Part shown: positions 13,822 to 24,105 of the stretch, one piece after another | How positions within the stretch are numbered: the stretch's first letter is position 1 | How the letters are laid out: the number at the start of each line of letters is the position of its first letter | Source: a virus | Lineage: Duplodnaviria; Heunggongvirae; Uroviricota; Caudoviricetes | Reading direction: 5' to 3' (one strand) | IMG/VR virus record: IMGVR_UViG_2721755497_000002 | Coordinates: 1-46,410 of that record | Length of the DNA: 46,410 nt | The notes under the pieces: generated by a model | What the model saw: the letters and a program-made list of their open reading frames with translations, nothing else | What the model was told of the DNA's origin: nothing | The model's database searches: none | Made by a program: the position numbers and the translations under genes

Positions 13822-14088
13822 TTTTATACCTTTTGTGTTGTGTGAACGATGAGTATAGTCAGAAATGAGACTGTGAAGGGGGATAGAAAATAATAGTTTG
13901 TTTTTGTAGAATCGCTGCGGGTGCTTGGGGCTATCTGTCTCAGGCATGAACACCAAAAGGCAGATAGAGAAAAGCCCCAGTTAACATTACGCGTCCGGCA
14001 AGACGCTTAACATTAATCTGAGGCCATATCTATGACTTGCACGCGTAGGTTAGCCTCTTACGTGCCGAAAGGCAAGGAGAAGCAGGCT

Positions 14089-14244
14089 ATGAAGCAGCAA
14101 AAGGCGATGTTAATCGCCCTGATCGTCATCTGTTTAACCGTCATAGTGACGGCACTGGTAACGAGGAAAGACCTCTGCGAGGTACGAATCCGAACCGGCC
14201 AGACGGAGGTCGCTGTCTTCACAGTCTACGAACCTGAGGAGTAA
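14089..14244 (+). CDS. hokD: Hok/Gef-family type I toxin
   Basis: Internal Met of ORF 14032..14244 gives MKQQKAMLIALIVICLTVIVTALVTRKDLCEVRIRTGQTEVAVFTVYEPEE, a near match to HokD/RelF as recalled; upstream in-frame extension is consistent with a mok-like leader. Confidence 0.8.
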   Translation: MKQQKAMLIALIVICLTVIVTALVTRKDLCEVRIRTGQTEVAVFTVYEPEE

Positions 14245-14312
14245 GAGACCAGGCGGGGGAGAAATCTCCCGCCACCTCTGATGTGTCAGGCATCCTCAAC
14301 GCACCCGCGCTT

Positions 14313-14340
14313 AACCCGCTTCGTCGGGTTTTGTTTTTTC
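14313..14340 (+). terminator. Rho-independent terminator after hok (CCCGcttcgtCGGG + TTTTGTTTTTT)
   Basis: Hairpin followed by T-tract; preceded by a second hairpin GGCGGGGGAGaaatCTCCCGCC. Confidence 0.5.
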
Positions 14341-14411
14341 CTGGCATTCTGGTTTACAATTCGCACGTCAGCCTGAACAACTGGCACCTGCTGCGCCAGC
14401 AGAGACAACCG

Positions 14412-14690
14412 ATGGCGCACGATACCAAATTACACAATTCTGATGATTCTGCCGTCTTTGCCAGCAGGCACGGGCGGCGTTCCCGCACTTTCAAATCTGA
14501 CTGGTTCCAGCATGACCCATGTACTGAAGAACAGGCCGAATGGCTAATTCATAACTATCGCAGACGCGGATACGAGATTAAGAAAGCCCTCAGCCTCGAT
14601 TATCGTCACTGGATAATCTATGTCAGGCTCCCTTATTCCGAACGCCCACCGCGCCCATCCCGCACATACCAGCAACGGATCTGGAGGTAA
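14412..14690 (+). CDS. Rem-like hypothetical protein
   Basis: Internal Met (MAHDTKLHNSDD...) downstream of the hok terminator; position between hok and DUF968 gene mirrors Qin rem. Confidence 0.45.
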   Translation: MAHDTKLHNSDDSAVFASRHGRRSRTFKSDWFQHDPCTEEQAEWLIHNYRRRGYEIKKALSLDYRHWIIYVRLPYSERPPRPSRTYQQRIWR

Positions 14691-14691
14691 C

Positions 14692-15747
14692 GTGCGGATA
14701 TTACTTCGACCTGTTCTGGTACCGGAACTCGGGCTGGTGGTCCTTAGGCCGGGCCGTGAATCCATGCAAGTATTTCATAACCCTCGAGTGCTGGTGGAGC
14801 CTGAACCGAAAAGCATGCGCGGTCTGCCGTCCGGAGTCGTCCCTGCCGTTCGCCAGCCGCTGGCGGAGGATAAATCATTACTGCCATTTTTCAGCGATGA
14901 GCGGGTGATTCGTGCTGCTGGCGGCGCTGGGGCACTGTCTGACTGGCTGTTGCGTCATGTCAAATCCTGCCAGTGGCCTCATGGTGACTATCATCACAGT
15001 GAAATCGTCATACATCGTTACGGTACCGGCGCGATGGTGTTGTGCTGGCACTGCGACAACCAGTTGCGTGACCAGACATCCGAATCACTCGGGCAACTTG
15101 CTCATCAAAACCTGTCAGCATGGATGATTGACGTCATCGGTCACGCAATAAGCGGTACGCAGGAGCGTGAATTATCTCTGGCTGAATTATCCTGGTGGGC
15201 GGTCCGCAATCAGGTGGCGGACGCGCTACCGGAAGCGGTATTACGTCGTTCGCTGGGGTTGCGTGCGGAAAAAATCCGTTCAATGTACCGTGAAAGCGAC
15301 ATCGTACCGGGAGAGCAGACCTCCACCAGCATACTGAAGCAGCGCACAAAAAATCTTGCGCCGCTGCCTCACGCCCACCAGCAAAACCCGCCACAGGAAA
15401 AGACGGTGGTCAGCATTGCTGTTGATCCGGAGTCACCGGCTCAGTATCTCCAGCGCCAGAAACCACAACGGGAAGAGATGCCTGTATACACGCGCTGGGT
15501 AAAAACGCAGAAATGCATGACGTGCGGTAATCAGGCAGATGATCCGCATCACATCATTGGTCATGGACTGGGAGGGACGGGAACAAAGGCTGATGATTTG
15601 TTTGTTATTCCGCTGTGCCGTAAATGTCATAACGAACTGCATGCCGGGGTAAAAGATTTTGAAGAAAAACACGGCAGCCAGCTGTTGTTGCTGATTCGTT
15701 TTTTAATGCACGCGAGAAATTCGGGTGTCCTGAAGTGGAAAGCATGA
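14692..15747 (+). CDS. DUF968 protein (YdfU-like; HNH-like zinc finger CMTCGNQADDPHHIIGHG...CRKCHNELH)
   Basis: ORF 14620..15747; probable GTG start at 14692 with GGAGG overlapping upstream stop (alternative ATG 14620); 352 aa. Confidence 0.65.
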   Translation: MRILLRPVLVPELGLVVLRPGRESMQVFHNPRVLVEPEPKSMRGLPSGVVPAVRQPLAEDKSLLPFFSDERVIRAAGGAGALSDWLLRHVKSCQWPHGDYHHSEIVIHRYGTGAMVLCWHCDNQLRDQTSESLGQLAHQNLSAWMIDVIGHAISGTQERELSLAELSWWAVRNQVADALPEAVLRRSLGLRAEKIRSMYRESDIVPGEQTSTSILKQRTKNLAPLPHAHQQNPPQEKTVVSIAVDPESPAQYLQRQKPQREEMPVYTRWVKTQKCMTCGNQADDPHHIIGHGLGGTGTKADDLFVIPLCRKCHNELHAGVKDFEEKHGSQLLLLIRFLMHARNSGVLKWKA

Positions 15748-16125
15748 ATGACTGAACGCATAGAATTTGTTTTGCCTTACCCGCCGACGGTGAATACCTA
15801 CTGGCGACGTCATGGCAATACGTATTTCATCTCGGAGGCCGGAAAGCGTTATCGCCGTGATGTGGCGCTAATTGTTCGCCAGCAGCGGCTGAAATTAAAC
15901 CTGTCCGGAAGGCTGGCAATAAAAATTACTGCAGAGCCGCCGGATAAGCGCCGTCGGGACCTGGACAATATCCTGAAAGCACCGCTGGATGCACTGACGC
16001 ATGCGGGGCTTCTCATAGACGACGAGCAGTTTGATGAAATCAATATTGTGCGCGGTCAGCTCGTTCCTGGTGGGCGACTGGGCGTGAAGATTTGCGAAAT
16101 CAGAGGTGATGGTAATGGGGCGTGA
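15748..16125 (+). CDS. rusA: RusA Holliday junction resolvase
   Basis: 125 aa; motifs PPTVNTYWR and RRRDLDN...LDAL...AG match the RusA family. Confidence 0.85.
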   Translation: MTERIEFVLPYPPTVNTYWRRHGNTYFISEAGKRYRRDVALIVRQQRLKLNLSGRLAIKITAEPPDKRRRDLDNILKAPLDALTHAGLLIDDEQFDEINIVRGQLVPGGRLGVKICEIRGDGNGA

Positions 16126-16465
16126 TATGTATGAGGTTTTAGATCGCTGGGGGGCATGGGCTGCAGCAGAAAATAGCGGTGTCGATTGGCAACCGATAGC
16201 AGCGGGCTTCAAGGGGCTTTTGCCACATGGCAAAAAGTCACGTCTCCAGTGTGATGATGATGAAGGCATCATGATAGACGGTTGTGTGGCTCGGTTGCGA
16301 AAGTATAAACCAGAGGAATATGAGCTGCTCATAGCTCACTTTGTTATTGGTGTTTCTCTACGCTCAATCGCGAAGAAACGCAGGTGCTCAGATGGAACTA
16401 TAAGAAAGGAGCTGCAAACTGCATTAGGCTTTATTGATGGATGTATATGCTTGATTCTATCATAA
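16115..16465 (+). CDS. Late antiterminator Q (QuuD / phage 82 Q family)
   Basis: ORF 16106..16465; LDRWGAWAA...IAAGFKGL...RLQCDDDEG...DGCVARL resembles QuuD; likely start ATG 16115 after GAGGTGA. Confidence 0.75.
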   Translation: MGRDMYEVLDRWGAWAAAENSGVDWQPIAAGFKGLLPHGKKSRLQCDDDEGIMIDGCVARLRKYKPEEYELLIAHFVIGVSLRSIAKKRRCSDGTIRKELQTALGFIDGCICLILS

Positions 16466-16478
16466 GTTATGACTGTTA

Positions 16479-16865
16479 CTACTCGTTTGCTTGAGCTTTC
16501 GATTCGGCGTCAGATAAAGCATCAATACGAATATTTATGTTTTTTAATAGCTTATTGTCTAGATCGATAAGACATTGGTTGTAGTGCGCAATTTGGTCTG
16601 GTGTTAGGTTAGGGTTGGCCAGGCAGTTCGTGATGAATTTTCTGGCCGTTTTTATTTCCCTTTTCATTCTTACATCATTAAGCGTAGGCAAACCTATGTA
16701 AGCGATAAGAAGAATTACCACATGAGATAAGCCGACAGCAGCTCCAGGCGCCAATGATTTGAAGAAGGCTAATTGAGGAAGCCAGTCAAAAAGGAAATTC
16801 AATCCCGCAGTGATAAGGGTGGTAAACCATGCCTGCATTGCCAGGTAGGATTTAGTGTTCGCCAT
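16479..16865 (-). CDS. Uncharacterised membrane protein (cargo gene 3 of 3), two predicted TM helices plus helical C-terminus
   Basis: 128-aa ORF; hydrophobic segments WFTTLITAGLNFLF and VGLSHVVILLIAYIGL; start abuts stop of upstream gene; convergent with Q, 13-bp gap. Confidence 0.6.
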   Translation of the reverse strand: MANTKSYLAMQAWFTTLITAGLNFLFDWLPQLAFFKSLAPGAAVGLSHVVILLIAYIGLPTLNDVRMKREIKTARKFITNCLANPNLTPDQIAHYNQCLIDLDNKLLKNINIRIDALSDAESKAQANE

Positions 16866-17111
16866 TCACCTTCCTGCACTTGCTTCGTTGCGAGTTTTGA
16901 GTTCGCGTAGCAGTAGCGCCAACTCTTCTGCGTCATTTTCGTTTCTAACGCTGACTTTCCTTTTAGCGGTTCTGCCTTCAGGATCGGTGTAGGTTAGTTC
17001 AATATACGCATTCGGCTTTACCCAAACCAAGAACCTAAGCACAGCATATCTGACCGTCGCTGCGACAGCCATGAATACAGTGATGTAAAGCATAATGCTT
17101 AGGATTGACAT
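16866..17111 (-). CDS. Uncharacterised small membrane protein (cargo gene 2 of 3), one N-terminal TM helix
   Basis: 81-aa ORF; ILSIMLYITVFMAVAATV hydrophobic segment; translationally coupled to neighbours. Confidence 0.6.
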   Translation of the reverse strand: MSILSIMLYITVFMAVAATVRYAVLRFLVWVKPNAYIELTYTDPEGRTAKRKVSVRNENDAEELALLLRELKTRNEASAGR

Positions 17112-17114
17112 GAT

Positions 17115-18026
17115 TTAAAGTAGTTTCCTATCTGCCGCCGCTCTGTGGCGTATAACCTTAGTAATACTATAGCGTGGTTTAGACAGCGCGCCATTTGTTT
17201 CTTTTGTTGTTTCTGTCAGTTCTACAACAAAAAGATCACCCTTACAGAATGCTGCTTGGTTGTGTTCAACCCGTTCAAGAAAAGCCTCATCTTTCATAGA
17301 TGCGCTAACTTCTTCGCCATTTGGCAGGATGATATCCCAGCTTTTGCCTTGCTTGAATCGAACATTAGCAAAATGTACATTAGCTTGGCGTGTCGTTACG
17401 TGCGTTTTCTCGACAAAGGTGGATTTTGCAGTTTTAAAACTTACTGCTTCAGCTTGCGTCACCCTGACTACCTTATGCTTCTGCTGTGAAACTGAGAACG
17501 TGGATGGTTTTTCAGTCTGCAGGGGTTTATAGATTAATTTATCCAGTTCTTTTCGGATGATTGGACTGGTTATTAATTTTTGAATGTCGTTACTGCATTT
17601 AACCTTCTCACCATCCACTTCGATTTCTGCTGTATCTTTTTGTTCATCGACGACAATGGAGCTGATTTTACGCCCTTTGAGCCATTCGATTATCCCGAGT
17701 ACGCCACCTGCGGCAACTCCACCACCTGCAACGAGGCCAAGGGCGTTAATAGTTTTTATGCTCCCCATCACAGCAACAAGCAAAGTAAATGAACCTTCTT
17801 TTGTTGCCTTGATGTTGACTTTCGGCTCTGCTGTTTCGCCATTAATTATTTTTTCGGCGTGTTCAATCAGGGCACTAAGAGAGGTTAAGGCTTCGCCTAA
17901 TGTTTTCGCGTCGATCTGATTATCTGCGTATGCCTCTCCACCGTAGGCAATTTCGATTTCTGTTATTGGCATGTTTTCGAGTTGCTGCGTCATCAAAAGC
18001 ATCCTTTGCGCAAGAGAAATAGCCAC
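17115..18026 (-). CDS. Uncharacterised protein (cargo gene 1 of 3) with central Gly/Ala-rich hydrophobic segment
   Basis: 303-aa ORF (track start is GTG; probable true start ATG at 17993 after AAGGA, giving 292 aa); hydrophobic LLVAVMGSIKTINALGLVAGGGVAAGGVLGII; no recognisable catalytic motif. Confidence 0.6.
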   Translation of the reverse strand: MAISLAQRMLLMTQQLENMPITEIEIAYGGEAYADNQIDAKTLGEALTSLSALIEHAEKIINGETAEPKVNIKATKEGSFTLLVAVMGSIKTINALGLVAGGGVAAGGVLGIIEWLKGRKISSIVVDEQKDTAEIEVDGEKVKCSNDIQKLITSPIIRKELDKLIYKPLQTEKPSTFSVSQQKHKVVRVTQAEAVSFKTAKSTFVEKTHVTTRQANVHFANVRFKQGKSWDIILPNGEEVSASMKDEAFLERVEHNQAAFCKGDLFVVELTETTKETNGALSKPRYSITKVIRHRAAADRKLL

Positions 18027-18115
18027 AGGATACAGATAATTATGAAAAAATCACTAACGCGTACGCAAAAACTATCTTAATCTGTTAAGAGTGGTCGCTT
18101 CGCCACACAACTTAA

Positions 18116-18140
18116 ACCCGCATCAAGCGGTTTTTTTTGT
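18116..18140 (+). terminator. Weak intrinsic terminator (CCGCatcaaGCGG + T8) upstream of the tRNA cluster; possible tR'
   Basis: Short GC stem followed by eight T residues on the plus strand. Confidence 0.35.
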
Positions 18141-18243
18141 GCCACTTATCTCGGATAGACATGGTGAATGCGCTGGTGGAGGAGATAAGGGTGATTTTTG
18201 AATGCTTGCAACATTGATTTCGTAACGTTATTATCCTGCGCCC

Positions 18244-18319
18244 GGCCCTTTAGCTCAGTGGTGAGAGCGAGCGACTCATAATCGCCAGGTCGCTGGTTCA
18301 AATCCAGCAAGGGCCACCA
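18244..18319 (+). tRNA. tRNA with CAU anticodon (Met or lysidine-dependent Ile2; ileZ-like phage tRNA)
   Basis: 76 nt GGCCCTTTAGCTCAGTGGTGAGAGC...ACTCATAATCG...GGTTCAAATCCAGCAAGGGCCACCA; canonical cloverleaf. Confidence 0.8.
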
Positions 18320-18326
18320 TCTCATA

Positions 18327-18403
18327 CCGCCATTAGCTCATCGGGACAGAGCGCCAGCCTTCGAAGCTGGCGGCGCGGGGTTCGGGTCCTCGATGGCGGT
18401 CCA
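18327..18403 (+). tRNA. tRNA-Arg, anticodon UCG (argN-like phage tRNA)
   Basis: 77 nt; acceptor CCGCCAT/ATGGCGG, anticodon loop CTTCGAA, T-arm CGGGG-TTCGGGT-CCTCG, CCA end. Confidence 0.75.
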
Positions 18404-18416
18404 TTATCTGCACCAT

Positions 18417-18490
18417 GCGGTCATCGTATAATGGCTATTGCATCAGCCTTCCTGGCTGATTATGCGGGGCAATTCCCGCTGACCGCTCCA
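18417..18490 (+). tRNA. tRNA-like element, argO-like but degenerate (non-canonical anticodon loop CTTCCTG and shortened T-loop GCAATT)
   Basis: Acceptor GCGGTCA/TGACCGC with CCA end; anticodon and T-loops deviate from consensus; may be a pseudo-tRNA. Confidence 0.4.
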
Positions 18491-18675
18491 TAGTGGATTA
18501 TGGGTACTGTATGTTAAGCATTTTTCTTCGTTACCCTTCATCGGTAAAAAAGCGTACAACAACTATTTATGCTGCCATTAGCGATGATAGTATAGTTACT
18601 GGTTCTTTCGTAGTGTGTTTATTTGTTTGCTATATTTTTATCGATAATTGACATTCTTCAGATGGGGATGAATAA

Positions 18676-19104
18676 ATGTATTGCCGTGGTTTGCCAGTTC
18701 TTGTTTTGATATTCGCCTGCCTGGCAGCAGGCTGCACAAAAGATGTATCAACAAATTATCATGATAGTGCGCCATATCACGCAGGTGAATTAACAAAGGT
18801 TAAGAATGTTAATCCATCTGAAAGTACTGCTGATGTTAGTGAAGACATTCGTCATTATGCCGGTCAAATCAAAAAAGCCATTGAAGAACAGTTCAGGGAA
18901 CCGGGTAAGTATTCCGGGAAAGTGTGTTCACTGAGAATGAATATGGCTCCGAATGGTCTTCTGTTGCAGGTTAAAAGAGAAGGTGGAGACCCCGATTTAT
19001 GTCGTGAAGCGATGAATGCGGTGAAGCATGCTGATATACCAGCACCGCCGTCTCCGGAAGTATATAAAGTATTTCACAATGGAGTGCTGGATTTTAAACC
19101 GTGA
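18676..19104 (+). CDS. Lipoprotein carrying a TolA C-terminal (domain III)-like domain
   Basis: 142 aa; signal peptide with lipobox LAAGC; C-terminal 85 aa (YAGQIKKAIEEQF...GKVCSLRMNMAPNGLLLQVKREGGDPDLC...IPAPPSPEVYKVFHNGVLDFKP) closely parallels E. coli TolA domain III as recalled. Confidence 0.7.
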   Translation: MYCRGLPVLVLIFACLAAGCTKDVSTNYHDSAPYHAGELTKVKNVNPSESTADVSEDIRHYAGQIKKAIEEQFREPGKYSGKVCSLRMNMAPNGLLLQVKREGGDPDLCREAMNAVKHADIPAPPSPEVYKVFHNGVLDFKP

Positions 19105-19304
19105 TTCTACATCTTTGCAGTAAACAATAATCATAATTGCATGTTTTTTCTGTGGTGGGGCATTTGGCTTCTGTTGCCTGCGATGTATTGTGGACCTGGT
19201 ATCAGCCTGCAGAAAATGCACACAGGTGTGAAGTGTTAAATTCCTCACAACTCAGAACGCAGAATGTTGTCCTGCTTGCGGGGAATTTGTTAAAAGAGTA
19301 CAGC

Positions 19305-19423
19305 ATGGTGAATCCCCCTGAGCGGAGGGGCATAATGACAGATGTTTGGTCGTGTTATCGTATAGGCAAGTTGCGGATTCTGTCTGGTCATTGCAGAATT
19401 CACCGGGAGGCACCCGGCACCAT
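19305..19423. repeat. Repeat unit copy 1 (about 119 bp): ATGGTGAATCCCCCTGAGCGGAGGGGC ... CACCGGGAGGCACCCGGCACCAT with two GC-rich hairpins
   Basis: Termini shared with copy 2 and mutually reverse-complementary (ATGGTG / CACCAT). Confidence 0.45.
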
Positions 19424-19558
19424 GTATTTTCAATATGTTATTGATCATTCTCTTTTTCGGAATACTCTGGTTATGTTTTCCTGTAACTGATAATTAAATC
19501 ACATTTTGTGTAACTGCATATTGTCTGAACGGGATAAGTTTCAGTATCTTCTGAATGT

Positions 19559-19678
19559 ATGGCGAATCCCCCTGTGCGGCGGGGCGTACTGATTTAAGTA
19601 GTCATCCAAGAATGCAGCTGAATGAAAACGCGCTCCATATTAATCAGTGGTGGAGCACCGGGAGGCACCCGGCGCCAT
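19559..19678. repeat. Repeat unit copy 2 (about 120 bp): ATGGCGAATCCCCCTGTGCGGCGGGGC ... CACCGGGAGGCACCCGGCGCCAT
   Basis: Same terminal hairpin modules as copy 1, divergent interior. Confidence 0.45.
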
Positions 19679-19707
19679 ACCGATGATGAAAGTAAATGCG
19701 TCCATCC

Positions 19708-19732
19708 GCCCCTCTCCGGAGGGGCTTTTTTA
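19708..19732 (+). terminator. Strong rho-independent terminator (GCCCCTCtccgGAGGGGC + TTTTTT) upstream of nanS-p
   Basis: 7-bp GC stem, 4-nt loop, T-tract. Confidence 0.6.
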
Positions 19733-19913
19733 TGGGCAAAAAAAGCCCGCTACGAATGGTAACGGGCTGCACAAAATAACAAAATGTGAAGTATTCTAAT
19801 CAGCCGCTGAATAATACCCGACAGTAATTAATCTGTGCAACGGTGCTTTTTCCCGCCTTGCAGGCACCGACTCTCTCATTTGATTTAACGCATTATCCCG
19901 TCCGGGAGGATTC

Positions 19914-21857
19914 ATGACATTTAAATATTATGATGTGGTTTCGGCCAGAACAACTGATGAATTAAAGCGGAAACTGAACGAAAAAATCCGTGAAGGATGG
20001 CAGCCTTATGGAACAATATCTGTTTCATCTGTGAGTGGTACTGAAGACATATATCATCAGCCAGTTGCTGCTGAGGGGGAGGTGAGTACGCCGGTGATAC
20101 GTCCTGATGCCGGTGATGATTCATCTGTGGCCGTCTCCGGATCGCCTGATTATTACTACGTGGTGGTACTGGCGGGGCAGTCAAATGGCATGGCCTATGG
20201 TGAAGGGTTTCCGTTACCGGATTCATTTGACCGCCCGGACCCACGGATTAAGCAACTGGCACGCCGCAGCACGGTCACGCCAGGTGGTACGCCGTGTAAA
20301 TACAATGACATCATTCCGGCAGACCACTGCCTGCATGATGTGCAGGACATGAGCGGGATAAACCACCCAAAAGCTGACCTGAACAAGGGGCAGTATGGTT
20401 GTGTGAGTCAGGGGCTGCATATTGCCAAAAAACTGCTGCCTTATATCCCGCAGAATGCCGGGATACTTCTGGTGCCCTGTTGCCGTGGCGGGTCAGCATT
20501 CACCACCGGGCCGGACGGTTCATTCAGTGAGGCCAGCGGTGCTTCCGCTGATTCTTCACGCTGGGGAGTCGGTAAACCTCTGTATCAGGACCTGGTAAGC
20601 CGCACCAAAGTCGCGCTGGCGAAGAACCCGAAAAACAAACTTCTGGCTGTGGTCTGGATGCAGGGAGAGGCAGACCTTGCATCGGGAAGTCAGCAGCATA
20701 ATGGTTTATTCACTGCCATGGTTCAGCAGTTCAGAGCCGACCTGTCTCCGCTTGCTGCGCAGTGCGTGAGTGGAAATGCTGGCACGGTACCGTGGATTTG
20801 TGGTGATACCACGTATTACTGGAAAAACGCTGGCACCGATAAATATGAGGCGGTATACGGTGGCTACAAAGGCAAGGAAACTCAGAATATTTTCTTTGTA
20901 CCGTTCCTGACGGATGAGAATGGACAGAACACGCCAACGAATGCTCCGACGGAAGATCCGGATATTGTGGCTGTCGGGTATTACGGTGCGGCATCCCGTA
21001 CCCAGGGCAGTTTTGTCTCGACACAGCGTGACAGCCATTTCAGTTCATGGGCACGCAGGGGCATCATTTCTGACCGTCTGGCCTCCTCTATTCTGCTCCA
21101 TGCAGGGCGCACGGCTGAACTGCTGGGCGGGCAGGCCGTGACACCACCGGATGAGAAGCCATCACCTGACACTCCATCAACATCACCGGGTGAAACTACC
21201 GGGATGACAACACTGTTTGCATACAGGGCCAGCGATTCGGAAGGACAACTGACTCCACAGGGCTGGGGGGCTGGCGGAGGTAGTGCCGCTGTTGTGGATG
21301 ATGCCGGAGCCAGTGGAGGTAAGGCGATGAAGCTTACCAAAGCGACGGGAAAATCCTCCTGGTACCTGGAACATGATGCCGGTAATGGTGCCGACCTGCT
21401 GGGCAAAGGCGGCCTTGTCAGTTGTCGTTTTAAACTTGATGGCGCGCTTACGGCTAATCAGTACGCACTGGCGCTGTACTGGCCGGTTTCTGCCCTGCCA
21501 CAAGGGGTTACCCTGGAAGGTAATGCTGGTCATAACCTGCTGGCATCTTTTTACGTTCAGAGCGATGCGACAGACCTTAACGTGATGTACCACAAGGGCG
21601 ATACGGCGCAAAACATGAAACTGGGGTCATTCGGTGCATTTGACAACGAGTGGCATACGTTGGGCTTCCGTTTCGCCGGTAACAACAGTATTGAGGTGAC
21701 GCCGGTCATTGATGGTCAGGACGGGACGCCGTTCATGCTGTCGCAGTTACCTGTCGGTTCTTTTGCGGCAGACAAGTTGCGCGTGACCGATATTACCAGT
21801 GCAGCAACGTATCCGGTGCTGATTGACAGCATAGTGGTGGAAGTGAATAACGCGTAA
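19914..21857 (+). CDS. nanS: NanS-p-type sialate O-acetylesterase (DUF1737 N-domain + SGNH/SASA esterase domain)
   Basis: 647 aa; N-terminus MTFKYYDVVSARTTDELKRKLNEKIREGWQPYGTISVSS (DUF1737-like); GQSN motif (VLAGQSNGMAYGEG); position between tRNAs and lysis genes as in EHEC prophages. Confidence 0.8.
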   Translation: MTFKYYDVVSARTTDELKRKLNEKIREGWQPYGTISVSSVSGTEDIYHQPVAAEGEVSTPVIRPDAGDDSSVAVSGSPDYYYVVVLAGQSNGMAYGEGFPLPDSFDRPDPRIKQLARRSTVTPGGTPCKYNDIIPADHCLHDVQDMSGINHPKADLNKGQYGCVSQGLHIAKKLLPYIPQNAGILLVPCCRGGSAFTTGPDGSFSEASGASADSSRWGVGKPLYQDLVSRTKVALAKNPKNKLLAVVWMQGEADLASGSQQHNGLFTAMVQQFRADLSPLAAQCVSGNAGTVPWICGDTTYYWKNAGTDKYEAVYGGYKGKETQNIFFVPFLTDENGQNTPTNAPTEDPDIVAVGYYGAASRTQGSFVSTQRDSHFSSWARRGIISDRLASSILLHAGRTAELLGGQAVTPPDEKPSPDTPSTSPGETTGMTTLFAYRASDSEGQLTPQGWGAGGGSAAVVDDAGASGGKAMKLTKATGKSSWYLEHDAGNGADLLGKGGLVSCRFKLDGALTANQYALALYWPVSALPQGVTLEGNAGHNLLASFYVQSDATDLNVMYHKGDTAQNMKLGSFGAFDNEWHTLGFRFAGNNSIEVTPVIDGQDGTPFMLSQLPVGSFAADKLRVTDITSAATYPVLIDSIVVEVNNA

Positions 21858-21988
21858 GCAGGACAAAAAAATGCCGCCGGGAAAGGGAAAACAAGGAAAC
21901 CGGCGGCAAAGGTCGTCACATCTAAAGCAAAAATGCAGGACGCCTTTTTAACCAACAGGTATTAACGATGTCAACACCATGTCGATAA

Positions 21989-22177
21989 TTGGGAGGGATA
22001 ATGACATTTTTACAGCTTATTTTATTGTATTTCTGTACGGCGGTGTGTGCACTGTATCTGGTGAGTGGTGGGTACAAAATTATACGCAACTACATCCGTA
22101 AAAAGATTGATGCCATGGCGGCTGAAAAAATCAGTGCCGGTCAGTCAGCAGAGCCAAAGTCCACGTCCCTCCCGTAA
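21989..22177 (+). CDS. Hypothetical small membrane protein
   Basis: 62-aa ORF with hydrophobic N-terminus FLQLILLYFCTAVCALYLV. Confidence 0.35.
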   Translation: MGGIMTFLQLILLYFCTAVCALYLVSGGYKIIRNYIRKKIDAMAAEKISAGQSAEPKSTSLP

Positions 22178-22202
22178 TCACATCTCACAGCGAGAAAAAA
22201 CC

Positions 22203-22508
22203 ATGACAGAAATGAAAAAACTGGTCACTGCTGATGCAGTGAAGTCAGCGCTGCGCACTGAAGAAGTCCGCGGGACGCTGAAAGCATCTATCCGTAAAAC
22301 GTTTGAGGCTCAGATTGATGCGGATGTGGAAGCGATTCTGGATGAGCTTATCGGACCTGCTGAGGGGGCATCTGCGCCACAGGTAGGGGATGGTGAGAAT
22401 ACAGCAGACTCTCCGGTGGAAAACAGCAGCGAACAACCTGAGGCACAACCCGCTGCTGGAGAACAACCAGCTGATGTACTGCAGCCTGAACCAGCGACCA
22501 TGCTGTGA
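22203..22508 (+). CDS. Hypothetical acidic protein upstream of holin
   Basis: Internal Met ([14 protein letters not shown]...) of ORF 22065..22508; about 101 aa. Confidence 0.45.
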
Positions 22509-22585
22509 TACATGACGCACAGGCCACCAGCATATCGCGGTGGTCTTTTATTATCGTGCGCTTCCGGTTAACGGGAGGCGGGGAT

Positions 22586-22801
22586 ATGTACCAGATGGAA
22601 AAAATCACAACAGGTGTGTCATACACCACGTCTGCGGTGGGGACGGGATACTGGTTTCTGCAGTTGCTGGACAGGGTATCCCCGTCTCAGTGGGCGGCAA
22701 TAGGCGTGCTGGGGAGTCTGCTGTTTGGTCTGCTGACGTACCTGACCAACCTGTATTTTAAAATCAGAGAGGACCGGCGCAAGGCGGCGCGGGGAGAATG
22801 A
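22586..22801 (+). CDS. Holin, phage 21 S21-like pinholin with dual-start motif
   Basis: 71 aa [26 protein letters not shown]...[22 protein letters not shown] resembles S21; GGGAGG Shine-Dalgarno; two Met within first four codons. Confidence 0.8.
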
Positions 22802-22805
22802 ACTG

Positions 22806-23339
22806 GTGAGTAAAAAACTCCGCTACGGTTTATCTGCGATCGTTCTGGCGCTGATTGCCACAGGTGCTTCTGCGCCTGAAATCCTTGACCAGTTTCTGGA
22901 TGAAAAGGAAGGTAACCACACCACGGCATACCGTGATGGCGCGGGTATCTGGACTGTCTGCCGGGGAGCCACTCGGGTGGATGGCAGACCTGTAGTTCCC
23001 GGTATGAAGCTGACGAAGGAAAAATGCGCTCAGGTTAATGCCATTGAACGGGATAAGGCACTGGCATGGGTGGAGAAAAATATCAGAGTGCCACTGACCG
23101 AACCGCAGAAAGCGGGGATAGCGTCATTCTGCCCGTACAACATTGGTCCCGGTAAGTGTTTTCCGTCGACGTTTTATAAACGAATTAATGCAGGTGATCG
23201 AAAAGGTGCCTGTGAGGCGATTCGCTGGTGGATTAAGGATGGTGGCAGAGACTGCCGTATTCGCTCAAACAACTGCTACGGTCAGGTGTCCCGTCGTGAC
23301 CAGGAGAGCGCGCTGGCGTGCTGGGGAATCGACAGATAA
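22806..23339 (+). CDS. SAR endolysin (T4 lysozyme-like muramidase with N-terminal signal-anchor-release domain)
   Basis: 177 aa; GTG start; N-terminal Gly/Ala-rich hydrophobic SAR segment LSAIVLALIATGASA; resembles phage 21 R21. Confidence 0.85.
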   Translation: MSKKLRYGLSAIVLALIATGASAPEILDQFLDEKEGNHTTAYRDGAGIWTVCRGATRVDGRPVVPGMKLTKEKCAQVNAIERDKALAWVEKNIRVPLTEPQKAGIASFCPYNIGPGKCFPSTFYKRINAGDRKGACEAIRWWIKDGGRDCRIRSNNCYGQVSRRDQESALACWGIDR

Positions 23340-23430
23340 GCAGAATATTTTGCTGAAAAATGCCGTTTGCTCACGCGGGTGGATAACACGATATTCTGCG
23401 AACTGGCAAAAGGTAAGTGAATAAAAGTAA

Positions 23431-23462
23431 AAACCCCGTTTGTTGGCTGCAAGCGGGGTTTT
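23431..23462 (+). terminator. Hairpin AAACCCCG...CGGGGTTT with T-tract inside the lysis cassette (candidate terminator/attenuator)
   Basis: GC stem with long loop followed by TTTTG. Confidence 0.35.
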
Positions 23463-23498
23463 GTGTTTCCTGACTCCGGAAAAGTCAAAGGAGAAAGT

Positions 23499-23636
23499 GT
23501 GTTTGATTTTAGCAAACTGATTCGGGAGATTCGAGTGATGGCTGAAAAATTATCCACCTGGAAGTTCATCCTTATCTGGCTGGTGTTTGTGATTATGGCC
23601 TCCGGTTATTTCATCGGTCAGATACGCTGGTGGTGA
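23499..23636 (+). CDS. Possible small membrane protein between endolysin and Rz (45 aa, [45 protein letters not shown])
   Basis: GTG start 5 nt after AGGAG; stop 1 nt before Rz ATG; one predicted TM helix; not in ORF track. Confidence 0.35.
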
Positions 23637-23637
23637 A

Positions 23638-24105
23638 ATGAACCGCGTTCTGTGTGTGATCATCATTGCCCTGCTGGTGGCCTGTGGTGTGCTGTGGGTG
23701 GCAACAGACTATTACCGCGATAATGCCATCACCTACAAGGCGCAGCGCGATAAAAAAGCCAGGGAGCTGCGGCTGGCAAACGCAACCATTACTGACATGC
23801 AGCAGCGTCAGCGTGATGTTGCTGCACTCGATGCAAAATACACAAAGGAGTTAGCCGATGCGAGAGCTGAAAATGAAACTCTGCGCGTTGATGTTGCCGC
23901 TGGTCGTAAGCGCCTGCGGGTCAACGCCACCTGTGTGTCCGCCACAGACAAAAACACCAGAACCGCCAGCGTGGATAATGCAGCCCGCCCCAGACTGGCA
24001 GACGCCGCTGAACGGAATTATTTCACTCTCAGCGACCGGCTGATGACGATGCAGAAGCAGCTGGAAGGGGCGCAGGAATATATCCGCGCTCAGTGCCTGA
24101 AATAA
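23638..24105 (+). CDS. Rz i-spanin
   Basis: 155 aa; N-terminal TM helix, coiled-coil-rich periplasmic domain; Rz1 embedded in +1 frame. Confidence 0.8.
23873..24043 (+). CDS. Rz1 o-spanin lipoprotein (embedded in Rz)
   Basis: Internal Met of ORF 23858..24043: [32 protein letters not shown]... lipobox VVSAC, proline-rich. Confidence 0.7.

What the first reader, a model, noticed from the sequence alone, without database searches (positions are those of the whole stretch)
18030..18142. Late-control region displaced from Q: possible PR'/tR' just upstream of the tRNAs
In lambdoid phages Q is normally followed directly by PR', a short leader and tR'. Here Q is followed by the inverted cargo operon, and the only plus-strand terminator-like element before the tRNAs is the weak CCGCatcaaGCGG + T8 at about 18118-18140. 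If PR' lies at about 18030-18100 it would overlap the promoter region of the divergent cargo operon, coupling its expression to late transcription. A stronger terminator lies at 19708-19732 before nanS-p.
Basis: inference. Interest (0 to 1): 0.35.

Follow-up and report, generated by a model that had tools for sequence, protein, structure and literature searches.

The report
Phage late-gene switch displaced by cargo
The stretch just before the tRNA genes is very probably the late-gene promoter, Q-protein docking site and terminator of this prophage, separated from the Q gene by an inverted defence-gene cassette, an arrangement that turns out to be the rule for this family of Q proteins.

Summary
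CCGC-atcaa-GCGG plus T8 lies at 18118-18138 and is a weak hairpin (-5.9 kcal/mol). Window 18045-18138 is a single-copy, about 95-nt module. It is conserved across Enterobacterales and always lies downstream of a PF06530 (Q21-family) Q gene on the same strand (74 of 80 species-level loci). In a minority it abuts the Q stop codon. In about 85% an inverted cargo of 0.6-2.9 kb sits between Q and the module, as here and in E. coli K-12 DLP12 (quuD-nmpC-module-essD).

Published Cappable-seq data place a K-12 start exactly 7 nt after the invariant TAnnnT hexamer. That corresponds to A18090 here, with the -10 hexamer TAATCT at 18078-18083. An upstream palindrome (GCGTACGC, 18059-18066) covaries perfectly with the helix-turn-helix region of Q, although cargo and downstream DNA are shuffled. 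I take it as the likely Q-binding element.

The reverse complement of the same box gives a -35 (TTGCGT) for a divergent cargo promoter. A -10-like hexamer lies exactly 17 bp from it in 26 of 61 cargo-bearing loci.

Q dependence, the pause element and any coupling to cargo expression remain inferred.

The parts
16115..16465 (+). Late antiterminator Q gene (116 aa from the ATG at 16115; the mechanical ORF starts at GTG 16106). It belongs to the PF06530 / Q21 family. Its helix-turn-helix region carries the motif SLRSIAKKRRCSDGTIRKELQ.
   Evidence: Pfam PF06530 E=3.8e-45; phrog_79 'anti-termination protein Q-like'; weak match to solved Q21 structures 6jnx/6p18, E=0.002; 50% identity to K-12 QuuD; RefSeq 'antiterminator Q family protein'.
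16479..18001 (-). Inverted three-gene cargo filling the slot between Q and its target. The genes are 17115-18001 (295 aa, PADLOC candidate defence family PDC-S42; NCBIfam LAPAL_fam), 16866-17111 (81 aa, hydrophobic N-terminus) and 16479-16865 (128 aa, hydrophobic segments).
   Evidence: ORF list; PADLOC PDC-S42 E=2.9e-53; NCBIfam NF053583 E=9e-67; PHROGs families of unknown function; no Pfam hit.
18039..18068 (-). Candidate divergent cargo promoter: -35 TTGCGT (18068 to 18063, the reverse complement of the box plus the start of the A-tract), an 18-bp spacer, and -10 CATAAT (18044 to 18039). The predicted start is near 18032 and the cargo ATG is at 18001.
   Evidence: Sequence. In 61 cargo-bearing species-level loci a -10-like hexamer lies exactly 17 bp from TTGCG[TG] in 26, against about 2.8 per other offset; in cargo-less loci it does so in 2 of 12. 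No start has been mapped.
18045..18138 (+). The whole conserved late-control module: A-tract, box, -10 hexamer, start, leader and terminator. It occurs once in the window.
   Evidence: blastn to phages; alignments A1 and A3; a profile search finds it downstream of Q, on the same strand, in 74 of 80 species-level loci; the composite pattern occurs once, with 0 expected.
18059..18066 (+). Palindromic box GCGTACGC, the candidate Q-binding element. It spans -31 to -24 relative to the inferred start.
   Evidence: Q allele and box type match one-to-one in 96 of 96 IMG/VR loci, across 11 or more cargo size classes for this Q type. In 72 species-level loci the match is also complete: SLR..CSDGT[IV]RK goes with GCGTACGC in 55 of 55, and SKR..[DS]E[KR].IRI goes with GCGGTCCGC in the 15 loci with an exact box plus 2 single-base variants of it. 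DNA just after the terminator is shuffled relative to box type.
18078..18083 (+). PR' -10 hexamer TAATCT. T-12, A-11, T-7 and the following G are invariant in 62 modules. A weak -35-like CTAACG lies at 18054-18059 (18-bp spacer, 3 of 6 matches).
   Evidence: Invariant columns T3 A4 T8 G9 of alignment A3. The K-12 start lies 7 nt after the homologous hexamer TATGCT. The site was not found by the consensus promoter scan.
18090..18090 (+). Inferred late transcription start (the A in TGTTAAG-A-GTGG).
   Evidence: Cappable-seq lists a plus-strand start at U00096.2:576452. This equals NC_000913.3:577229 and L009 position 4730, the same A in the DLP12 copy of the module (PMC4782308 supplement; sequence). 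The offset of 777 is from memory, not checked against a .2/.3 coordinate table. The only check made here is that the neighbouring strong start (576081) also lands exactly 7 nt after a TATTAT hexamer.
18087..18092 (+). Candidate sigma-dependent pause element AAGAGT, a -10-like hexamer overlapping the start (compare lambda AACGAT). This assignment is inference only.
   Evidence: Columns 12-17 of A3 are invariant or nearly so: A12 invariant, A13, G14, A15 and T17 at 90% or more. The box would lie at about -40 to -33 from it, similar to the Q21 geometry described in PMC6606751. No pausing data exist.
18091..18106 (+). 5' leader hairpin P1 (GUGGUCGCUUCGCCAC) in the short leader RNA.
   Evidence: Predicted in the minimum-free-energy folds of the window and of relatives. 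Read by eye from alignments A3, not counted: G-C, A-U and G-U alternatives appear at the fourth pair, and a register shift accompanies GACAC variants. RNAalifold gave no consensus structure on A3.
18118..18138 (+). tR' intrinsic terminator: CCGC-AUCAA-GCGG plus U8. One base is weaker than in the sibling copies, which have GCGGG.
   Evidence: The stem sequence varies among relatives but pairing is kept (CCCGC/GCGGG, CCGCC/GGCGG, CCUCGC/GCGGGG). The predicted leader RNA is about 45-49 nt.
18206..18234 (+). Separate sigma-70-like promoter TTGCAA-17-TATTAT, directly before the first tRNA. It is not part of the Q module.
   Evidence: Promoter scan, 9 of 12 matches. The segment 18114-18243 is 95% identical in PPompW prophages, whose Q belongs to a different family, PF06323.

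Best explanation
Window 18045-18138 is the cognate Q-utilisation cassette of the Q gene at 16115-16465. It holds the late promoter PR', a Q-binding box, a short leader and the terminator tR'.

Proposed mechanism:
1. RNA polymerase with sigma-70 starts at about A18090 from the -10 hexamer TAATCT (18078-18083).
2. Without Q it makes a leader of about 45-49 nt, with a 5' hairpin at 18091-18106, and stops at the weak terminator at 18118-18138.
3. After induction, Q binds the palindrome GCGTACGC (18059-18066), probably as a symmetric pair of subunits.
4. Q loads onto the polymerase held near the start, plausibly through the -10-like AAGAGT at 18087-18092.
5. Q then carries the polymerase through tR' into the tRNAs, nanS-p and the lysis and morphogenesis genes.

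Q and this cassette are separated by a slot that holds an inverted cargo, here a PDC-S42 candidate defence gene plus two small membrane-protein genes. The cargo is read leftwards from a promoter whose -35 (TTGCGT) is the other strand of the Q box. The two promoters therefore sit back to back and share the Q site.

Shown: the conservation, position and orientation of the module; the start in the K-12 homologue; the Q-box covariation; the terminator.
Inferred: Q binding, the pause element, Q-dependent read-through, and any effect of Q on the cargo promoter.
For: 1. The module sits at the Q stop codon in cargo-less phages, and after inverted genes in cdtI, SfIV, mEp460, Stx2a_1447, a Stx1a phage and K-12 DLP12.
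2. In a sample chosen through Q alone (one genome per species), a profile of the module hits downstream of Q on the same strand in 74 of 80 loci. Of these, 11 are adjacent and 63 have inserts of 0.6-2.9 kb, whose ORFs total 32,053 aa on the opposite strand against 377 aa on the same strand.
3. The IMG/VR sample gives 10 adjacent against 92 with inserts, and 20 or more unrelated cargo sets.
4. T-12, A-11, T-7 and G-6 are invariant in 62 modules. A published Cappable-seq start in K-12 lies exactly 7 nt after that hexamer.
5. Q allele and box type match without exception: 96 of 96 and 72 of 72. Q divergence is concentrated in the helix-turn-helix region. Meanwhile the cargo between them and the DNA 80 bp downstream are shuffled.
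6. A hairpin plus T-run follows 30-55 nt after the start in nearly all relatives, with the stem sequence changed but pairing kept.
7. The module is single-copy in the window, and there is no space for a promoter after Q.
8. The divergent -10-like hexamer is sharply positioned at 17 bp.
Against: - No experiment on this prophage exists.
- The consensus promoter scan does not call PR'; its -35 is only 3 of 6.
- The K-12 start is weak (relative read score 1.7, threshold 1.5). It comes from a homologue with a better -35 (TTTACG). The coordinate offset used to map it (777) is from memory.
- No 3' end at the K-12 terminator appears in the Term-seq tables of PMC7815308.
- The window's terminator is weak (-5.9 kcal/mol) and may leak.
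- The pause element is only a guess. The window lineage has TCGC where most relatives have TTAC in the leader.
- A conserved inverted repeat (TTAAG 18085-18089 / CTTAA 18111-18115) would need a start upstream of 18085 if it acted in RNA, and remains unexplained.
- The Q-box association could in part reflect descent, since there are only about 5-7 independent box types.
Confidence: 0.8

Rival explanations
1. The invariant TAnnnT hexamer (18078-18083) is not the promoter -10. It is the sigma-dependent pause element, and the real PR' start lies 10-25 nt further upstream, in or left of the box. The leader would then include TTAAG (18085-18089), which pairs with CTTAA (18111-18115) to form a long hairpin.
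For: - The box-to-hexamer distance (box at -31 to -24 from the hexamer-bound sigma) resembles the distance between the Q-binding element and the pause element in lambda and phage 21 (PMC6606751).
- The inverted repeat shows compensated variants: TAGG/CCTA, TATG/CATA, TATT/AATA.
- A pause element can itself act as a weak promoter, which would explain the weak K-12 start.
Against: - No conserved -10-like hexamer exists upstream of 18078, and any -35 would fall in the non-conserved, cargo-specific DNA.
- Cappable-seq lists no other plus-strand start between 576081 and 576452 in K-12.
Confidence: 0.1
2. The module is an autonomous small-RNA gene (promoter, leader of about 47 nt, terminator). It is conserved for the function of the RNA itself, as with the StxS RNA of Stx phages, and is not the entry point of Q-dependent late transcription.
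For: - The leader sequence is almost invariant across genera and Q types, more than a promoter-terminator pair needs.
- In Stx phages the PR'-tR' RNA is a regulatory sRNA (PMC7547250).
Against: - The two roles are not exclusive; StxS is itself the PR' leader.
- The module is always downstream of Q on the same strand and upstream of lysis, late or stx genes.
- The box covaries with the DNA-binding region of Q.
- No Rfam family matches.
Confidence: 0.07
3. The late promoter is the better consensus match TTGCAA-17-TATTAT at 18206-18234, and the 18118-18138 hairpin merely ends some other transcript.
For: It is the only plus-strand promoter-like hit in the intergenic region, with 9 of 12 matches.
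Against: - It lies 3 nt-scale upstream of the first tRNA, with no terminator after it before the tRNAs.
- It is 95% identical in PPompW prophages, which have a different Q family (PF06323) and their own phage-82-like PR' directly after Q. It is therefore independent of Q type.
- It is best read as a tRNA promoter.
Confidence: 0.03
4. The region encodes a 36-aa protein. RefSeq annotates WP_433914360.1 'antiterminator' at window 18091-18201.
For: The RefSeq annotation, and a cluster of 36-39 aa entries with the same name.
Against: - The ORF starts at the second base of the inferred transcript, with no ribosome-binding site, and runs through the terminator.
- In 62 homologous modules the start codon is GTG in only 44, and stop codons interrupt the frame within 3-11 codons in roughly half.
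- No NCBIfam model matches.
Confidence: 0.02

Closest known systems
Phage 21 late regulatory cassette (Q21, PR'21, Q-binding element, sigma-dependent pause element, terminator)
   Same: The Q protein belongs to the same Pfam family (PF06530) and shows weak sequence similarity to the solved Q21 structure. Its DNA-binding region is sigma-region-4-like. The candidate binding element lies between the -35 and -10 positions of the late promoter, and a short leader ends at an intrinsic terminator.
   Different: - Q21 is 162 aa and binds two direct repeats (TGAGCA at -25 to -12). Here Q is 116 aa and the candidate site is an 8-14 bp palindrome at -31 to -24.
- The Q gene and its target are usually separated by an inverted cargo slot.
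- The pause element has not been identified experimentally.
E. coli K-12 DLP12 cryptic prophage: quuD - nmpC (inverted) - essD/rrrD/rzpD
   Same: It has the same module (L009 4696-4778), the same order (Q, inverted cargo, module, late genes) and a Q 50% identical to this one. A mapped start lies at the homologous A.
   Different: The cargo is a porin gene (disrupted by IS5) rather than a defence candidate. The box is TTTACGTACGTAAA, which gives a better -35. The terminator is stronger. Lysis genes, not tRNAs, follow directly.
Lambda and phage 82 PR'-tR' cassettes (Q families PF03589 and PF06323)
   Same: The logic is the same: a constitutive promoter, a short terminated leader (6S RNA in lambda), and Q loading near the promoter. 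The PPompW prophage, with an 82-type Q, even shares the DNA from the terminator to the tRNAs with this window.
   Different: In those phages PR' follows Q directly, with the -35 inside the end of the Q gene in the 82 type. The 82-type pause element TGaTATTTT-GCC is absent here, and the Q proteins are unrelated in sequence.
StxS, the PR'-tR' leader RNA of Stx phages (PMC7547250)
   Same: It is also a short RNA made constitutively from the late promoter and ended at tR'. The module studied here also precedes stx1AB or stx2 in some Stx phages (Stx1_14040, Stx2a_1447, Stx2_EH2201).
   Different: StxS is 258 nt, binds Hfq and comes from the 933W-type Q cassette. The leader here is about 47 nt, and no function or Hfq binding is known for it.

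Membership tests
Lambdoid Q-dependent late regulatory cassette (Q gene + PR' + Q-binding element + pause element + tR') | A Q antiterminator gene upstream on the same strand | tested here: met
   PF06530 E=3.8e-45 for 16106-16465. The module lies downstream of Q on the same strand in 74 of 80 species-level loci.
Lambdoid Q-dependent late regulatory cassette (Q gene + PR' + Q-binding element + pause element + tR') | A sigma-70 promoter with a transcription start just upstream of a short leader | tested here: met
   T-12, A-11 and T-7 are invariant in 62 modules. A Cappable-seq start lies 7 nt after the homologous hexamer in K-12 DLP12. The test is indirect, since the start was mapped in a homologue. 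The -35 is weak and the site is not called by the consensus scan.
Lambdoid Q-dependent late regulatory cassette (Q gene + PR' + Q-binding element + pause element + tR') | A Q-binding element at the promoter, specific for the cognate Q | tested here: met
   Box type and Q helix-turn-helix type match in 96 of 96 and 72 of 72 loci, despite shuffled cargo and downstream DNA. This is a comparative test only; binding was not measured.
Lambdoid Q-dependent late regulatory cassette (Q gene + PR' + Q-binding element + pause element + tR') | A -10-like sigma-dependent pause element in the initial transcribed region | tested here: inconclusive
   The candidate AAGAGT (18087-18092) is nearly invariant, but it overlaps the start. 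No other conserved nAnnnT lies early in the leader, and no pausing data exist.
Lambdoid Q-dependent late regulatory cassette (Q gene + PR' + Q-binding element + pause element + tR') | An intrinsic terminator shortly downstream of the start | tested here: met
   Hairpin plus U8 at 18118-18138. Relatives keep a hairpin plus T-run with changed stem sequences. The window copy is weak (-5.9 kcal/mol).
Lambdoid Q-dependent late regulatory cassette (Q gene + PR' + Q-binding element + pause element + tR') | Q-dependent read-through of the terminator into late genes | not testable with these tools
   This needs reporter fusions or RNA-seq with and without Q.
Q21 / Q933W protein family (PF06530) with a Q21-type binding site | Protein matches PF06530 and the Q21 fold | tested here: met
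   Pfam 153 bits against a cut-off of 26. Match to PDB Q21 (6jnx, 6p18) at E=0.002 over residues 12-90. Weak ECF sigma region-4 matches. The fold itself was not modelled.
Q21 / Q933W protein family (PF06530) with a Q21-type binding site | Binding element made of two direct repeats (TGAGCA N2 TGAGCA) | tested here: not met
   No TGAGCA repeats are present. The covarying element is a palindrome: GCGTACGC, GCGGTCCGC or TTTACGTACGTAAA.
Phage 82-type PR' (Q family PF06323) | A PF06323 Q, followed by an extended -10-like pause element with a GCC discriminator at +15 to +17 | tested here: not met
   Q is PF06530, not PF06323. The 82-like TGaTATTTT-GCC is present in PPompW (L004) but not in the window (description in PMC5001585).

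The most novel reading that the evidence does not exclude
In this Q family the Q-binding palindrome doubles as the -35 of a built-in outward-facing promoter that expresses whatever cargo occupies the slot between Q and PR'. When Q accumulates after induction, it would occupy the box. That would switch late transcription on and, at the same time, shut off the prophage's own defence or abortive-infection cargo, which would protect the phage's own lytic cycle. This would be a dual-function antiterminator and repressor site, and a promoter-equipped, recombination-prone cargo slot conserved across Enterobacterales, including upstream of stx genes in some Stx phages.
Probability: 0.2. Interest if true: 0.7.

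Novelty: new variant of a known kind. Interest (0 to 1): 0.5.

Why it matters
It gives a concrete, testable map for a large Q family whose targets are usually left unannotated: -10 hexamer, start, candidate Q-binding element and terminator. One paper read here reported finding no PR' or qut site for Stx prophages with non-933W Q proteins (PMC9729726).

The same module precedes stx1 or stx2 in some Stx phages, so locating it bears on predicting toxin expression.

The work also shows that the gap between Q and its target is a widespread slot for inverted cargo. Among the contents are Kiwa, PDC-S20, PDC-S42, an HNH nuclease and the NmpC porin. The slot has its own promoter, which overlaps the Q site. 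This is useful for mining defence systems, and it suggests a simple way for a prophage to silence its cargo when it goes lytic.

Tried and rejected
- **Rfam.** A scan of 14000-24000 at E<=1 gave no family for 18030-18142.
- **Consensus promoter scan.** It does not detect PR'.
- **Sequence strings in papers.** Searching the module sequence in full texts gave only irrelevant hits.
- **Phage 82 identity.** I first suspected that the DLP12 module was phage 82's PR'. I rejected this: the published 82 features (extended -10-like element, GCC at +15 to +17, pause at U25) fit PPompW's PF06323 cassette, not this module.
- **-10 assignment.** The TATCTT hexamer at 18073-18078 was my first candidate. It is not conserved in 1720a-02 or DLP12, so I dropped it.
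- **K-12 3' ends.** The Term-seq tables show no 3' end at the DLP12 terminator. The RNA is short and low in abundance, so this is uninformative.
- **K-12 minus-strand start.** The Cappable-seq supplement lists no start at 576370-576429, but the stored file is truncated, so this is also uninformative.
- **RNAalifold.** On A3 it returned no consensus structure because of indels, so I assessed the helices by hand and by script.
- **Literature on a defence hotspot next to Q.** Searches found no description of this slot. Absence from this library does not prove novelty.
- **The RefSeq 36-aa 'antiterminator' CDS.** Rejected as a conserved coding sequence.
- **Thomason dRNA-seq paper.** Not held in the library.
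Full report
**What is in the window**

The window is 100% identical to a prophage in the chromosome of E. coli strain M3, from a mouse. Reading rightwards, the region holds:
- a DUF968 gene and RusA;
- a Q antiterminator gene at 16106/16115-16465 (PF06530, E=3.8e-45);
- three minus-strand genes at 16479-18001;
- a 242-bp intergenic region;
- tRNA genes from 18244;
- a TolA-like gene, two STnc100 copies and nanS-p.

Only 13 bp separate the Q stop codon from the stop codon of the last cargo gene. No promoter can sit directly after Q.

**Check of the observation**

The hairpin is CCGC (18118-18121), AUCAA, GCGG (18127-18130), followed by T8 (18131-18138). This pattern occurs once in the window, against 0.02 expected by chance. 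The hairpin alone folds at -5.9 kcal/mol. That compares with -12.2 for the closest relatives, which carry GCGGG, and with -16.5 for the terminator at 19708-19725.

The consensus terminator scan did not list it, because the stem has fewer than five pairs. The same scan found no other plus-strand terminator-like site before the tRNAs, and it confirmed the strong one at 19708-19725. The consensus promoter scan found nothing in 18030-18100, so any claim for a promoter there has to rest on other evidence.

**The stretch is a conserved module tied to Q**

- *Phage records.* blastn against phage records matched window 18045-18141 at about 77-86% identity in many lambdoid phages.
- *Cargo-less phages.* In 1720a-02, PhiR49_2 and Stx2_EH2201 the match starts at the stop codon of a 126-aa PF06530 Q.
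- *Cargo-bearing phages.* In cdtI, SfIV, mEp460 and Stx2a_1447 the match follows minus-strand genes, as it does here. A Stx1a phage has Q, three inverted genes, the module and then stx1AB.
- *K-12.* DLP12 has quuD, the inverted nmpC gene, the module (L009 4696-4778) and then essD. QuuD is 50% identical to the window Q.

The alignment shows an A-tract, a palindromic box, a TAnnnT hexamer, an almost invariant stretch TGTTAAGAGTGGTYRCTTCGCCACACARCTTAAA, and then a hairpin plus T-run whose stem sequence varies while pairing is kept.

**How general the arrangement is**

*IMG/VR sample.* A scan for the module core returned 129 loci. A PF06530 Q was found upstream on the same strand in 102 of them.
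- The 27 without a detected Q all had less than 2.5 kb of upstream sequence.
- Ten of the 102 have Q adjacent to the module.
- Ninety-two have 0.6-2.9 kb in between.
- The inserts are at least 20 unrelated gene sets. In 29 of 30 size classes all genes are on the opposite strand.

*Species-level sample.* To avoid bias from searching with the module, I also collected Q relatives from one genome per species (80 loci). They come from Escherichia/Shigella, Citrobacter, Enterobacter, Klebsiella, Serratia, Yersinia, Xenorhabdus, Erwinia, Pantoea, Providencia, Proteus and others. I then searched these loci with a profile of the module.
- The profile hit downstream of Q on the same strand in 74 of 80.
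- Eleven are adjacent to Q or overlap its end.
- Sixty-three have inserts. Their ORFs total 32,053 aa on the opposite strand and 377 aa on the same strand.

*Contents of the slot.* The 295-aa window protein matches the PADLOC candidate defence family PDC-S42 (E=2.9e-53). NCBIfam names the same protein differently: LAPAL_fam, a "putative phage structural protein". So its role in defence is not established. Elsewhere the slot holds Kiwa (KwaB E=2e-150, next to a KwaA-sized membrane protein), PDC-S20, an HNH nuclease related to PDC-M68A, the NmpC porin and lipoproteins.

**Where transcription starts**

In 62 non-redundant species-level modules the invariant positions are T and A, then three variable bases, then T and G, one variable base, and T and A. 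AGA and T are nearly invariant after that. The pattern TAnnnT is what a sigma-70 -10 hexamer looks like when only its critical bases are constrained. In the window it is TAATCT at 18078-18083.

The supplement of the published Cappable-seq study of E. coli K-12 lists a plus-strand start at U00096.2:576452 (PMC4782308).
- *Mapping.* Adding 777, the coordinate offset between the two K-12 genome versions in this region, gives NC_000913.3:577229, which is L009 position 4730. This is the A in TGTTAAG-A-GTGG, exactly 7 nt after the DLP12 hexamer TATGCT.
- *Check of the offset.* The offset is from memory. The only check made here is that the neighbouring strong start (576081) also lands exactly 7 nt after a TATTAT hexamer.
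- *Strength.* The start is weak, with a relative read score of 1.7 against a threshold of 1.5. A terminated RNA of about 47 nt would be poorly captured, which may explain this.

The equivalent base in the window is A18090. The -35 is poor: CTAACG at 18054-18059, 3 of 6 matches, with an 18-bp spacer. No other conserved -10-like hexamer lies upstream.

**The box is the likely Q-binding element**

The box is GCGTACGC in the window (18059-18066, -31 to -24). Other lineages have GCGGTCCGC, TTTACGTACGTAAA, ACAATCGT or TGTTATAACA. All are palindromic or nearly so.

*IMG/VR sample.* Q clusters at 80% identity map one-to-one onto box types.

| Q type | Box | Loci | Insert size classes |
|---|---|---|---|
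| window type | GCGTACGC | 25 of 25 | 11 |
| cdtI type and 1720a type | GCGGTCCGC | 24 of 24 | 8, or none |
| QuuD type | ACGTACGT (39) or ACAATCGT (3) | 42 | several |
| a fifth type | TGTTATAACA | 5 of 5 | one |

*Species-level sample.* The association is again complete.
- Q proteins with ...SLR.IA[KR].R.CSDGT[IV]RK... all have GCGTACGC (55 of 55).
- Those with ...SKR..A....[DS]E[KR].IRI... have GCGGTCCGC in 15 loci, and a single-base variant of it in 2 more.
- Two odd Q sequences have odd boxes.

Q proteins of different clusters are nearly identical over the first 60 residues and diverge in residues 62-100. That stretch gives weak matches to ECF sigma region 4. In Q21 the corresponding part is the DNA-binding helix-turn-helix (bioRxiv 651190 and PMC6606751).

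The DNA just after the terminator, about 80 bp from the box, is freely shuffled relative to box type. Box a joins at least six downstream classes, and class D1 joins four box types. The window itself shares everything from the terminator to the tRNAs with PPompW prophages. Those have a PF06323 Q and an 82-like PR' directly after it. Recombination is evidently frequent on both sides of the box, yet Q and box are never mismatched. That is best explained by functional pairing.

The number of independent box types is small (about 5-7), so shared descent contributes to the association. Binding was not measured.

**The rest of the mechanism is inference**

In lambda and phage 21, Q loads onto a polymerase held by sigma at a -10-like element early in the transcript, with the Q site about 24-40 bp upstream of that element. 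The best candidate here is the nearly invariant AAGAGT at 18087-18092, which overlaps the start. The box would then lie at -40 to -33 from it. I rate this assignment as no better than one in three.

The leader has a 5' hairpin at 18091-18106, which appears in the minimum-free-energy folds. By eye, the alignments show G-C, A-U and G-U alternatives at one of its pairs. I did not count these.

**An unexplained inverted repeat**

An inverted repeat, TTAAG (18085-18089) and CTTAA (18111-18115), encloses that hairpin.
- The core complement is present in 58 of 62 modules, against 12.5% in shuffles.
- Five of eight variant cores are compensated.

Its 5' arm lies upstream of the mapped start. Three readings are open: starts are heterogeneous or lie upstream; the repeat acts in DNA; or it acts in a minus-strand RNA. 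I could not decide among these. It is the main reason I keep a rival in which TAnnnT is the pause element and the true start lies upstream.

**The divergent cargo promoter**

On the minus strand the box plus the start of the A-tract reads TTGCG[TG]. In 61 cargo-bearing species-level loci a -10-like hexamer (A at position 2, T at position 6, at least 4 of 6 matches) lies exactly 17 bp from it in 26. The other offsets between 10 and 29 average about 2.8. In cargo-less loci the count is 2 of 12.

The window has TTGCGT (18068 to 18063), an 18-bp spacer and CATAAT (18044 to 18039). That predicts a start near 18032 and a 31-nt leader to the cargo ATG at 18001. The two promoters are back to back, with starts about 58 bp apart, and they share the box.

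Whether Q binding represses the cargo promoter is untested.

**Rivals considered**

- *TTGCAA-17-TATTAT at 18206-18234.* This promoter sits directly before the first tRNA and is shared with prophages of another Q family. It is best read as a tRNA promoter.
- *The RefSeq 36-aa CDS "antiterminator" at window 18091-18201*. Its frame is broken by stops within 3-11 codons in about half of 62 homologous modules, and its start codon is not conserved. It is an ORF call over a non-coding element.
- *An autonomous small-RNA role for the leader.* This is possible and does not conflict with late control, as StxS shows.

**Verdict**

The finding is right in substance. The module is a member of the known Q-dependent late-control kind. 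It differs from the studied examples in three ways: a palindromic candidate Q site, a very short leader, and a promoter-equipped slot for inverted cargo between Q and its target. The slot is common across Enterobacterales and is present in K-12 DLP12 and in some Stx phages. I found no paper in the held library that defines this module or the slot, which does not prove that none exists.

Noticed in passing
window 18172-18179: A Chi site (GCTGGTGG) lies on the plus strand about 35 nt after the terminator. CGCTGGTGG is invariant or nearly so in the eight-phage alignment A1, even though the surrounding DNA varies.
   Followed up: no
window 18085-18089 and 18111-18115: An inverted repeat TTAAG/CTTAA flanks the inferred start and encloses the leader hairpin. 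It shows compensated variants in other genera (TAGG/CCTA, TATG/CATA, TATT/AATA). The 5' arm lies upstream of the mapped start, so its role is unclear.
   Followed up: partly
window 18091-18201: RefSeq annotates a 36-aa CDS named 'antiterminator' (WP_433914360.1) over the leader, terminator and Chi site. The reading frame is not conserved among homologous modules, so it looks like a spurious gene call.
   Followed up: yes
window 18130-18131: The terminator stem is polymorphic within the window's own lineage. Two of four near-identical copies have GCGGG (hairpin -12.2 kcal/mol). The window and one other have GCGGT (-5.9 kcal/mol), which predicts a leakier terminator here.
   Followed up: partly
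window 18114-18243 and L004 2501-2631: From the terminator to the tRNAs the window is 95% identical to PPompW prophages. Their Q is of the phage 82 family (PF06323), with an 82-like PR' (TTGCAA-17-TATATT, then TGaTATTTT-GCC). The mosaic joint lies at the terminator.
   Followed up: yes
window 18417-18487: A third, degenerate tRNA-like sequence is detected by Rfam (42.8 bits) but not by ARAGORN. RefSeq calls it tRNA-Gly, whereas relatives have a second tRNA-Arg at this position.
   Followed up: no
window 19274-19478 and 19529-19737: Two tandem copies of the Rfam sRNA family STnc100 (119 and 98 bits) lie between the TolA-like gene and nanS-p. The strong terminator at 19708-19725 belongs to the second copy.
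   Followed up: no
window 18676-19104: A 142-aa protein with a TolA C-terminal domain (Pfam E=1.8e-23) is encoded between the tRNAs and the STnc100 copies. It is a possible moron acting on Tol-dependent entry.
   Followed up: no
L020/L058, L095, L050, L009 (slot between Q and the module): The same slot carries Kiwa (KwaB plus a KwaA-sized membrane protein), PDC-S20 (a KAP-type NTPase), an HNH nuclease related to PDC-M68A, the NmpC porin, lipoproteins and many gene pairs with no match in PADLOC. It could be a source of undescribed defence systems.
   Followed up: partly
L130 (Stx1a phage Stx1_14040), L003 (Stx2a_1447), L007 (Stx2_EH2201): The module precedes stx1AB or the stx2 region in some Shiga-toxin phages, in two cases after inverted cargo. 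It is therefore probably the late promoter that drives toxin expression there.
   Followed up: partly
L180 5456-6089 and L182 5455-5673 (Serratia): Two or three tandem copies of a divergent module follow Q directly. These copies lack the TAAG/CTTA repeat.
   Followed up: no
window 14000-14094: A partial match to the Rfam sok antitoxin RNA (41 bits, cut off by the search boundary) lies next to a gene RefSeq annotates as hokD. This is a hok/sok-type module inside the prophage.
   Followed up: no
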